Positions 62,531-64,000 of a stretch of DNA of 64,000 bases are shown here, piece after piece. How positions within the stretch are numbered: the stretch's first letter is position 1; every line of letters starts with the position of its first letter. The notes under the pieces are model-generated. The model did no database searches. It was not told where the DNA came from and was given only the letters and a program-made list of their open reading frames with translations. The position numbers were made by a program, and so were the translations under genes. Source of the DNA: Escherichia coli (GTDB taxonomy: Bacteria > Pseudomonadota > Gammaproteobacteria > Enterobacterales > Enterobacteriaceae); assembly GCF_044324785.1 (NCBI RefSeq), contig NZ_CP172127.1; one strand, given 5' to 3'.

Positions 62531-62965
62531 ATGACTAACCTGTTTGTTCGTAGCGGAATTTCTTTTGTCGATCGTAGCGAAGTTTTAACCCATATCGGTA
62601 ATGAGATGCTCGCGAAAGGTGTGGTTCATGATACCTGGCCACAGGCATTAATTACCAGAGAAGCAGAATTCCCTACCGGGATAATGCTTGAGCAGCACGC
62701 CATTGCAATACCGCATTGTGAGGCGATTCATGCTAAGTCGTCAGCCATTTATCTGTTAAGGCCAACAAATAAAGTTCATTTTCAGCAAGCGGATGATGAT
62801 AACGACGTGGCGGTATCGTTGGTTATTGCGTTGATTGTGGAAAATCCGCAGCAGCAATTGAAACTTTTACGCTGTTTATTTGGCAAGTTACAACAGCCCG
62901 ATATCGTCGAGACACTAATCACTCTTCCTGAAACCCAGTTAAGGAAGGTGCGAACAAGTTCCTGA
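62531..62965 (+). pseudogene. gatA: galactitol PTS EIIA, 3' end replaced by IS5 sequence (truncated/fusion)
   Basis: Reading frame runs into IS5 left end at 62943; last 7 codons (RKVRTSS) are IS5-encoded. Confidence 0.75.
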
Positions 62966-64000
62966 TATGAGATCATCATATTCATCCGGAGCGCATCCCA
63001 GAGGGACATCATGAGCCATCAACTCACCTTCGCCGATAGTGAATTCAGCACTAAGCGCCGTCAGACCCGAAAAGAGATTTTCCTCTCCCGCATGGAGCAG
63101 ATTCTGCCATGGCAGAATATGACCGCTGTCATCGAGCCGTTTTATCCCAAGGCGGGCAATGGCCGACGGCCCTATCCGCTGGAGACCATGCTGCGTATTC
63201 ACTGCATGCAGCATTGGTACAACCTGAGCGACGGTGCCATGGAAGATGCCCTGTACGAAATCGCCTCCATGCGCCTGTTTGCCCGATTATCCCTGGATAG
63301 CGCCCTGCCGGATCGCACCACCATCATGAATTTCCGCCACCTGCTCGAGCAGCATCAACTGGCCCGTCAATTGTTCAAGACCATCAATCGCTGGCTGGCC
63401 GAAGCAGGCGTCATGATGACCCAAGGCACTTTGGTGGATGCCACCATCATTGAGGCACCCAGCTCTACCAAGAACAAAGAGCAGCAACGCGATCCGGAGA
63501 TGCATCAGACCAAGAAAGGCAATCAGTGGCACTTTGGCATGAAGGCCCACATTGGTGTCGATGCCAAGAGTGGCCTGACCCACAGCCTAGTCACCACCGC
63601 GGCCAACGAGCATGACCTCAATCAGCTGGGTAATCTGCTTCATGGTGAGGAGCAATTTGTCTCAGCCGATGCCGGCTACCAAGGAGCGCCACAGCGCGAG
63701 GAGCTGGCCGAGGTGGATGTGGACTGGCTGATCGCCGAGCGTCCCGGCAAGGTAAAAACCTTGAAGCAGCATCCGCGCAAGAACAAAACGGCCATCAACA
63801 TCGAATACATGAAAGCCAGCATCCGTGCCAGGGTGGAGCACCCGTTTCGCATCATCAAGCGGCAGTTCGGCTTCGTGAAAGCCAGATACAAGGGGCTGCT
63901 GAAAAACGATAACCAACTGGCGATGTTATTCACCCTGGCCAACCTGTTTCGGGTGGACCAAATGATACGTCAGGGGAGAGATCTCAGTAAAAACCGGAAA
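62943..64000 (+). mobile_element. IS5 insertion sequence (partial; continues past window end)
   Basis: Left terminal sequence GGAAGGTGCGAACAAGTTCCTGATATGAGATCATCATATTCATCCGGAGCGCATCCC recognised as IS5 end; TTAA target at 62939-62942. Confidence 0.85.
63011..64000 (+). CDS. insH: IS5 transposase InsH (3'-partial in window)
   Basis: ATG at 63011, translation [37 protein letters not shown]...; no stop before window end, so absent from ORF track. Confidence 0.85.

What the first reader, a model, noticed from the sequence alone, without database searches (positions are those of the whole stretch)
62531..64000. IS5 insertion replaces the 3' end of gatA and separates gatYZA from anything downstream
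The gatA frame reads straight into the IS5 left end at 62943 and terminates after 7 IS5-encoded codons, so the protein ends early (C-terminal fusion). The remaining galactitol PTS genes, expected downstream, would be cut off from the gatY promoter. This is a plausible basis for a galactitol-negative phenotype.
Basis: partly seen in the sequence, partly recalled or inferred. Interest (0 to 1): 0.5.

Follow-up and report, generated by a model that had tools for sequence, protein, structure and literature searches.

The report
ISKpn26 insertion truncating gatA
A common mobile element of the IS5 family (ISKpn26) has landed near the end of the E. coli galactitol-uptake gene gatA, which is a real but ordinary gene knock-out of a kind already documented in laboratory and wild strains.

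Summary
The gatA frame (62531-62965) runs into the left end of an IS5-family element at 62943. It stops after 7 foreign residues (RKVRTSS), giving 144 aa instead of 150; the native last 13 aa are lost. The element is ISKpn26, not canonical IS5. Its visible part is 93.0% identical to K-12 IS5, 99.7% to ISKpn26, and 100% to a 1195-bp ISKpn26 variant. It sits at a TTAA (gatA nt 409-412), transposase co-oriented with the operon; gatY and gatZ are intact.

The right end lies beyond 64000 and I could not recover it. Three duck isolates carry the same junction as a simple insertion, with a TTAA duplication and gatBCD-gatR intact. NCTC9041 has an ISKpn26 at the same site beside a 2.09-kb deletion into gatD. 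So a simple insertion is likely here but not shown.

IS5-family insertions at YTAR sites in gatA/gatB recur: W3110, C600, the DH1/DH5alpha family, several wild isolates and mouse-gut evolution clones. Those clones were all galactitol-negative, including one with an insertion at gatA nt 436/453. A galactitol-negative phenotype is therefore plausible but inferred. No intrinsic terminator was found on the sense strand of the element, so polarity on gatBCD is uncertain. Verdict: real, already known in kind, low interest.

The parts
60376..61230 (+). gatY, intact (284 aa from the ATG at 60376; the mechanical ORF list starts it at the GTG at 60370)
   Evidence: The homologous annotated gatY CDSs are 855 nt. 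gatY through gatA nt 412 differs from strain N3 at 4 of 2572 positions.
61259..62521 (+). gatZ, intact (420 aa)
   Evidence: Same length as the annotated gatZ in GS04 and N3.
62531..62965 (+). gatA', a truncated fusion ORF of 144 aa: GatA residues 1-137 plus RKVRTSS. The phosphorylation-site His-62 is retained; the native last 13 aa are lost.
   Evidence: NCBIfam NF007236 (PTS galactitol IIA) scores 281.5 bits against a cut-off of 139, but covers profile positions 1-140 of 150 only.
62939..62942 (.). TTAA target site (gatA nt 409-412), the left copy of the expected 4-bp target duplication
   Evidence: In GS04 the same TTAA flanks both ends of the element. It is one of 8 YTAR sites in gatA.
62943..64000 (+). 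ISKpn26 (IS5 family), first 1058 bp of an expected 1195 bp. The transposase-proximal terminal inverted repeat is at 62943-62958. The element runs off the window.
   Evidence: 100% identical to the complete 1195-bp copy in WCHEC025985 (L007 607-1801).
63011..64000 (+). ISKpn26 transposase ORF, co-oriented with the gat operon. It is open to the window end; the stop is expected at about 64003.
   Evidence: NCBIfam NF033581 (IS5 family transposase) scores 367 bits against a cut-off of 140, covering the full profile 1-285. ORF reconstruction.
63973..63974 (+). Site of a 1-bp deletion (a T is missing) relative to reference-type ISKpn26. It changes the transposase C-terminus from ...RQWERSQ* (326 aa) to ...[11 protein letters not shown] (330 aa).
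   Evidence: The same variant gives an exact 80-nt match in 68 E. coli records, including the older SMS-3-5 genome, so it is not a sequencing error.

Best explanation
Shown: a copy of ISKpn26, a 1.2-kb IS5-family insertion sequence, has transposed into the TTAA at nt 409-412 of gatA. gatA encodes the EIIA component of the galactitol phosphotransferase system in the E. coli gatYZABCD operon. The transposase gene points the same way as the operon. The GatA reading frame now ends 7 codons into the element. Most of the C-terminal helix is replaced: 13 native residues are lost and RKVRTSS is added. gatY and gatZ are untouched.

Inferred: the element is a simple insertion, followed by a second TTAA, the 45-nt gatA remnant and gatBCD-gatR. 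It makes the strain unable, or much less able, to use galactitol, for two reasons. GatA has lost part of its fold. And gatB, gatC and gatD are now 1.2 kb further from the gatY promoter, behind a foreign gene and a 209-nt untranslated stretch that invites premature (Rho-type) termination.

This is an ordinary loss-of-function allele. It is one more hit at a locus that IS5-family elements strike repeatedly.
For: Junction, truncated ORF and terminal repeat. The IS is ISKpn26 and its transposase matches the IS5-family model. The junction appears in an independent assembly.

The empty-site allele exists. N3's gatA is identical over nt 1-412, is 150 aa long, and is followed by gatBCD-gatR.

The same junction in GS04, BL12 and BHD6 is a simple 1196-bp insertion with a TTAA duplication and an intact downstream operon.

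The truncated stretch is part of the domain. The Pfam PTS_EIIA_2 match reaches model position 136 of 144 at residue 136. The NCBIfam profile is covered only to position 140 of 150. The alignment to solved structure 1XIZ runs to residue 138, and that chain continues for another 13 residues.

Phenotype precedent: IS insertions in gatA at nt 203 and 436 of 453 were found in gut-evolved K-12 clones, all of which were gat-negative. The gat locus is inactivated at about 1e-5 per generation. Galactitol use is polymorphic in wild E. coli (PMC3945185; PMC5094792).

Recurrence: IS5-family elements sit at gatA nt 55, 203 and 409 and at gatB nt 688 in at least 71 of 5426 complete genomes. These include W3110, C600 and the DH1/DH5alpha/JM109 family. 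PMC2072959 lists gatA::IS5 as a known W3110 difference.
Against: The right end of the element, the second TTAA and gatB are outside the window. Scans of public collections did not recover them for this strain.

At this same site NCTC9041 shows a deletion into gatD rather than a simple insertion.

Polarity is not demonstrated. The element is co-oriented with the operon. The consensus scan found no convincing sense-strand intrinsic terminator in it; the only + strand candidate is a weak 6-bp stem with a poor T tail. Read-through into gatBCD is therefore possible.

His-62 and 137 of 150 residues of GatA remain, so residual EIIA activity cannot be excluded. No phenotype data exist for this strain.
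Confidence: 0.75

Rival explanations
1. The ISKpn26 copy marks the edge of a larger rearrangement. This could be an IS-adjacent deletion, or an inversion or deletion by recombination between two ISKpn26 copies. In that case gatB and its neighbours do not follow the element, and the gat operon is partly missing rather than merely interrupted.
For: NCTC9041 has ISKpn26 at exactly gatA nt 412. Its other end abuts gatD with no target duplication, and 2.09 kb are deleted. 14EC033 has an IS5-type element joining gatZ to gatA nt 55 without matching flanks. ISKpn26 is multi-copy in many E. coli genomes, up to 43 places per genome.
Against: Most inspected IS5-family events at this locus are simple insertions with matching 4-bp duplications: GS04 (BL12 and BHD6 share its junction by BLAST), CUPS04, CUWW06, FJ_Ec_21, W3110 and SW070919. 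gatY and gatZ show no decay. Nothing in the window points to a second breakpoint, and only one IS end is present in 64 kb.
Confidence: 0.2
2. The insertion is real and simple but phenotypically mild. The truncated GatA still transfers phosphate, and transcripts from the gatY promoter or the transposase promoter read through the co-oriented element into gatBCD. The strain would then still ferment galactitol, perhaps more slowly.
For: No convincing sense-strand intrinsic terminator was found in the element, and the gatB ribosome-binding site would be intact in a simple insertion. His-62 and the Pfam-matched core 10-136 are retained. RefSeq annotates the identical truncated product in GS04 as an ordinary gatA protein, WP_259482414.1, and not as a pseudogene.
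Against: An IS insertion even nearer the stop codon (nt 436/453) was among the gut-evolved clones, and all of those clones were gat-negative. The transposase ORF has C-rich, G-poor stretches (C/G up to 2.3 in 78-nt windows), and a 209-nt untranslated gap would precede gatB. These features favour Rho-dependent polarity, though that is a heuristic only. No outward sigma-70-like promoter was found at the right end.
Confidence: 0.2
3. The junction is an assembly misjoin at a repeated element, and gatA is in fact intact in the organism.
For: IS copies are classic sites of misassembly, and the window ends inside the element.
Against: An independent short-read contig, seen in two samples, is identical over 10.4 kb. 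It carries the same gatA-IS junction with 30 nt of IS sequence. The junction sits at a canonical IS5-family target, TTAA, and the same junction exists in other finished genomes.
Confidence: 0.02

Closest known systems
gatA::ISKpn26 in E. coli GS04, BL12 and BHD6 (duck isolates, China)
   Same: Identical insertion site (TTAA, gatA nt 409-412), identical orientation, and the same 144-aa fusion tail RKVRTSS. In GS04 it is a simple insertion with a TTAA duplication and intact gatBCD-gatR.
   Different: The host alleles differ. gatY-gatZ differ at 94 of about 2200 positions (mostly in gatZ) and gatA at 7 positions, two of them 8 and 23 bp from the junction. The IS variant also differs (2 SNPs plus a 1-bp indel). 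The events are therefore independent, not a shared or transferred one.
gatA::IS5 of E. coli K-12 W3110 and C600, and gatB::IS5 of DH1/DH5alpha/JM109/XL1-Blue
   Same: An IS5-family element at a YTAR site inside the galactitol PTS genes of the same operon. The W3110 insertion is long documented (PMC2072959).
   Different: These are canonical IS5, not ISKpn26. The sites differ (gatA nt 203-206; gatB near nt 688 on the gatA scale), and the orientation is opposite.
gat-negative IS insertions selected in the mouse gut (Barroso-Batista et al. 2014; Lourenco et al. 2016)
   Same: IS insertions in gatA (nt 203 and nt 436 of 453), gatZ, gatC and the gatY promoter. All clones were gat-negative, with a selective benefit of about 7-8% per generation. 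The locus is a mutational hotspot.
   Different: Those arose in a K-12 background where gat is expressed constitutively; the MG1655 reference record shows gatR interrupted by IS3E. Here the state of gatR is unknown, the strain is a wild-type lineage, and nt 409 was not among the reported positions.
NCTC9041 gatA-ISKpn26-gatD
   Same: Same left breakpoint at gatA nt 412 and the same IS species.
   Different: Opposite orientation, no target duplication, and 2.09 kb deleted (the gatA 3' end, gatB, gatC and the gatD 5' end).

Membership tests
IS5 family insertion sequence (IS5 group; ISKpn26) | DDE transposase matching the IS5-family model | tested here: met
   NF033581 scores 367.1 bits against a cut-off of 140, with the full profile 1-285 covered.
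IS5 family insertion sequence (IS5 group; ISKpn26) | 16-bp terminal inverted repeats GGAAGGTGCGAA(C/T)AAG at both ends | tested here: inconclusive
   The left repeat is present at 62943-62958. The right repeat lies beyond 64000. It is present in the 100%-identical full copy L007 607-1801 and in GS04.
IS5 family insertion sequence (IS5 group; ISKpn26) | Insertion at a YTAR tetranucleotide with a 4-bp target duplication | tested here: inconclusive
   The target TTAA is present on the left (62939-62942). The duplicated copy is outside the window. The duplication is seen at the same site in GS04.
ISKpn26 specifically (as opposed to canonical IS5) | Near-identity in nucleotide sequence to ISKpn26, and below isoform level to IS5. 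The roughly 95% nt convention of ISfinder is cited from my own knowledge. | tested here: met
   99.7% to the GS04 copy that RefSeq names ISKpn26, 100% to the WCHEC025985 variant, and 93.0% to K-12 IS5A over 1058 bp. The ISKpn26 (GS04 copy) and IS5 transposases share 320 of 326 aa.
GatA, PTS galactitol-specific EIIA | Equivalog-level match to the GatA model and position in gatYZA synteny | tested here: met
   NF007236 scores 281.5 bits against a cut-off of 139. fbaB-gatY-gatZ lie upstream as in K-12.
GatA, PTS galactitol-specific EIIA | Full-length 150-aa protein with the native C-terminus | tested here: not met
   144 aa; profile positions 141-150 are unmatched; KEYFTKYVLDSDE is replaced by RKVRTSS.
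GatA, PTS galactitol-specific EIIA | Phosphorylatable histidine (His-62 in E. coli GatA; the assignment is from established annotation, my own knowledge) | tested here: met
   The sequence ...AIAIPH(62)CEA... is retained. Activity itself is not testable here.
Galactitol-negative (loss-of-function) gat allele | Inability to ferment or grow on galactitol | not testable with these tools
   Only precedent is available: the gut-evolved K-12 clones with gat mutations, including IS insertions in gatA, were all gat-negative.

The most novel reading that the evidence does not exclude
The TTAA at gatA nt 409-412, like the CTAA at nt 203-206, may be a natural hotspot where IS5-family elements have independently knocked out galactitol use in unrelated wild E. 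coli lineages. At least three separate hits are seen at nt 409: this strain, the GS04 duck clone, and NCTC9041. That would be parallel evolution in nature, driven by the same selection against gat expression measured in mouse-gut experiments, rather than by target preference alone.
Probability: 0.4. Interest if true: 0.3.

Novelty: already known. Interest (0 to 1): 0.1.

Why it matters
The main use is for annotation and phenotype prediction. This strain should be scored as probably dulcitol (galactitol) negative, and gatA should be flagged as disrupted; RefSeq calls the identical 144-aa product in GS04 a normal protein. It also adds one natural example to the evidence that the gat operon is a recurrent target of IS5-family elements. 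It opens no new mechanism or question.

Tried and rejected
1. Recovering the right-hand side for this strain failed.
- The exact 144-aa protein is on record only on two short-read Logan contigs that break inside the IS.
- The left-junction pattern gave 0 hits in genome contigs and 0 in metagenome contigs.
- A look-up of the N3-allele GatB was useless, because that protein occurs in 42,905 index blocks.

2. The idea that the insertion was imported by recombination from a GS04-like donor was rejected. SNPs lie 8 and 23 bp from the junction, gatZ is about 4% diverged, and the IS variant differs.

3. The idea that insertions at this locus favour the orientation co-directional with the operon was rejected. 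It had been suggested by the first search, where all hits were co-oriented. A mirror-image composite query found 62 genomes with the opposite orientation against 9 co-oriented, so the first impression was ascertainment bias.

4. The scan for an outward promoter or a sense-strand terminator in the element found nothing convincing.

5. The AlphaFold2 model of GatA from a single sequence had mean pLDDT 47.7 and is not usable. It only hints at a last helix at residues 134-146. I ran no further search on improving it.

6. The suspicion that the 1-bp deletion in the transposase was a sequencing error was rejected. The same variant is present in 68 records.

Full report
**What is in the sequence**

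Window 59025-62521 carries fbaB, gatY (60376-61230) and gatZ (61259-62521), all full length. gatA starts at 62531. Its frame reads ...CCT GAA ACC CAG TTA A|GG AAG GTG CGA ACA AGT TCC TGA and stops at 62965, giving 144 aa.

Intact GatA is 150 aa and ends TLPETQL-KEYFTKYVLDSDE. This holds for K-12, for CUPS04, and for strain N3, whose gatA is identical to the window over nt 1-412. The window protein ends TLPETQL-RKVRTSS. Thirteen native residues are therefore replaced by seven. The first new codon is a hybrid of one target base and two IS bases.

From 62943 the sequence is the terminal inverted repeat GGAAGGTGCGAACAAG of an IS5-group element. It occurs once in the window, against 0.01 expected by chance. 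G+C rises from about 0.44-0.45 to 0.55-0.57 across the junction.

**What the element is**

The 1058 bp visible in the window were compared with four references:
- 93.0% identical to IS5A of K-12 MG1655
- 97.4% to an 'IS5'-annotated copy in CUWW06
- 99.7% to the ISKpn26 copy of GS04
- 100% to a 1195-bp ISKpn26 variant in WCHEC025985

RefSeq names the matching copies 'IS5-like element ISKpn26 family transposase'. The transposase ORF starts at 63011 on the same strand as the gat operon. It matches the NCBIfam IS5-family model NF033581 at 367 bits against a cut-off of 140. So the element is IS5 family but ISKpn26, not IS5 itself.

The window copy lacks one T between 63973 and 63974 relative to reference-type ISKpn26. 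This changes the last residues of the transposase and extends it from 326 to 330 aa. RefSeq flags such copies as 'frameshifted'. The exact variant is nevertheless found in 68 E. coli records, including the older SMS-3-5 genome, and WCHEC025985 carries at least two copies flagged this way. It is therefore a real variant and probably an active one.

**Is the junction real?**

Yes. A Logan short-read contig (SRR31073010_34, also seen in a second sample) is identical to window 52531-62972 without a single mismatch. It ends 30 nt inside the IS, as short-read assemblies do at repeats.

**The target and the empty site**

The insertion lies at the TTAA at gatA nt 409-412. This is one of eight YTAR tetranucleotides in gatA, at nt 5, 55, 118, 203, 226, 385, 409 and 436. 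YTAR is the known IS5 target preference (established knowledge of the family). Every complete element I inspected that had matching flanks showed YTAR duplications.

The closest host allele is strain N3. It is 99.8% identical over gatY-gatZ-gatA', and there gatA is intact and followed by gatB, gatC, gatD and gatR.

**What lies beyond 64000**

This cannot be seen, and I could not recover it. Related genomes show two possible outcomes at exactly this site.
- In GS04, with the identical junction also present in BL12 and BHD6, the element is a simple 1196-bp insertion. It is flanked by TTAA on both sides, followed by the gatA remnant and an intact gatBCD-gatR. All three are duck isolates with similar genome sizes.
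- In NCTC9041 an ISKpn26 in the opposite orientation has the same left breakpoint. Its other end abuts gatD, there is no duplication, and 2.09 kb are deleted.

Most inspected events at the locus are simple insertions. I put about 0.75-0.8 on a simple insertion here and about 0.2 on a larger rearrangement.

**Independence and recurrence**

The window differs from GS04 as follows:
- 94 positions in gatY-gatZ
- 7 positions in gatA, including two that lie 8 and 23 bp from the junction
- 2 SNPs plus one indel in the IS

The same-site, same-orientation insertions are therefore independent events, not a shared or transferred one. With NCTC9041, nt 409 has been hit at least three times.

Other sites are also reused:

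| Site | Strains or clones |
|---|---|
| gatA nt 203-206 | W3110, SW070919, FJ_Ec_21, several mouse-gut clones (C600 gives a W3110-like three-piece BLAST match; its junction was not inspected) |
| gatA nt 55 | CUWW06 and the right flank of 14EC033 |
| gatA nt 436 | one mouse-gut clone |
| gatB TTAG (nt 688 on the gatA scale) | CUPS04; DH1's IS5 right flank starts at the same TTAG but without a matching duplication; DH5alpha, JM109 and XL1-Blue give DH1-like BLAST matches, junctions not inspected |

Composite queries count 9 genomes with a co-oriented IS5-family element and 62 with an oppositely oriented one in the gatA-gatB neighbourhood, out of 5426 complete genomes. The gatA::IS5 of W3110 is listed as a known difference from MG1655 (PMC2072959).

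**Likely consequence**

Two effects are expected.

First, GatA loses the last 13 residues.
- The Pfam EIIA_2 match reaches model position 136 of 144 at residue 136.
- The GatA equivalog profile is covered only to position 140 of 150.
- The alignment to solved homologue 1XIZ runs to residue 138, and that chain continues for 13 more residues.
- A low-confidence model places a final helix at residues 134-146 (weak evidence).

Most of the C-terminal helix is therefore replaced, while His-62 is kept.

Second, in a simple insertion gatB, gatC and gatD would sit 1.2 kb further from the gatY promoter. They would lie behind a foreign ORF and a 209-nt untranslated stretch.

I found no convincing sense-strand intrinsic terminator and no outward promoter in the element. 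Polarity would therefore have to come from Rho-type termination, for which only heuristic C-rich stretches speak. This step is inferred, not shown.

The best empirical support comes from the mouse-gut experiments. The evolved clones carried mutations in gatA, gatC, gatZ or the gatY regulatory region, and every one was gat-negative. One of them had an IS at gatA nt 436/453, closer to the stop codon than the insertion here. The gat locus is inactivated at about 1e-5 per generation, and galactitol use is polymorphic among wild strains (PMC3945185; PMC5094792). I put about 0.7 on a clear galactitol-negative phenotype.

**Comparison with the known, and verdict**

This is a member of a well-described class: IS5-family insertional inactivation of the gat operon. 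The same junction already exists in finished genomes, and the same gene is hit in classical laboratory strains. The specific allele is not in the 5426 complete genomes. That allele combines this host lineage, whose best match over 13 kb is only 98.4%, with the 1195-bp ISKpn26 variant. This does not make it a new kind of thing.

Novelty: already known. Interest: low. The first reader's interpretation is supported, with three corrections: the element is ISKpn26, the right side is unverified, and polarity is assumed rather than shown.

Noticed in passing
window 63973-63974 (ISKpn26 transposase 3' end); L007 607-1801: The window's ISKpn26 copy belongs to a 1195-bp variant with a 1-bp deletion that rewrites the transposase C-terminus (326 to 330 aa). 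RefSeq flags such copies as 'frameshifted' pseudogenes. Yet the exact variant occurs in 68 E. coli records, on both chromosomes and plasmids, and WCHEC025985 has at least two copies flagged this way. It is probably transposition-competent and mis-annotated.
   Followed up: partly
gatA nt 55, 203, 409, 436 and gatB TTAG (window 62585, 62733, 62939; loci L001, L002, L004, L005, L021-L024): All IS5-family insertions seen in gatA/gatB fall on YTAR sites, and a few sites are reused in unrelated strains and in both orientations. nt 203-206 is hit in W3110, SW070919, FJ_Ec_21 and mouse-gut clones (C600 gives a W3110-like BLAST match, junction not inspected). nt 409-412 is hit at least three times.
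   Followed up: yes
L021 2044-3239 (NCTC9041); L006 1505-2699 (14EC033): Two finished genomes show IS5-family elements at the gat locus with non-matching flanks. One is a 2.09-kb deletion from gatA nt 412 into gatD. The other is a gatZ-to-gatA nt 55 deletion. These are IS-associated deletions rather than simple insertions.
   Followed up: partly
window 50000-62942 compared with 60370-62942: The host lineage has no close relative among 5426 complete E. coli genomes; the best match is 98.4% over 13 kb. The gatY-gatZ-gatA' segment alone is 99.8% identical to strain N3. This suggests a mosaic (recombined) region around the gat operon.
   Followed up: partly
window 1-15000: This stretch carries an accessory 3-hydroxybenzoate/gentisate cluster (mhbT, 3-hydroxybenzoate 6-monooxygenase, gtdA) next to dld and mdtQ. 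Only 498 of 5426 genomes cover at least 80% of it, and about 9% of it is missing from most of the best hits.
   Followed up: no
L001 9716-9784 (GS04); expected at about 64114 beyond the window: In a simple insertion, the right end of ISKpn26 supplies an ATG in frame with the gatA remnant. This gives a 22-codon ORF, MTCLFAPS-LKEYFTKYVLDSDE, just upstream of gatB. It is probably meaningless, but it could keep ribosomes on the message ahead of gatB.
   Followed up: no
L010 (K-12 MG1655 2169000-2178500): The reference K-12 gat locus is itself damaged: gatR is split by IS3E and gatC is annotated as a pseudogene. 'Reference' gat operons should therefore be chosen with care when used as the intact comparator.
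   Followed up: no
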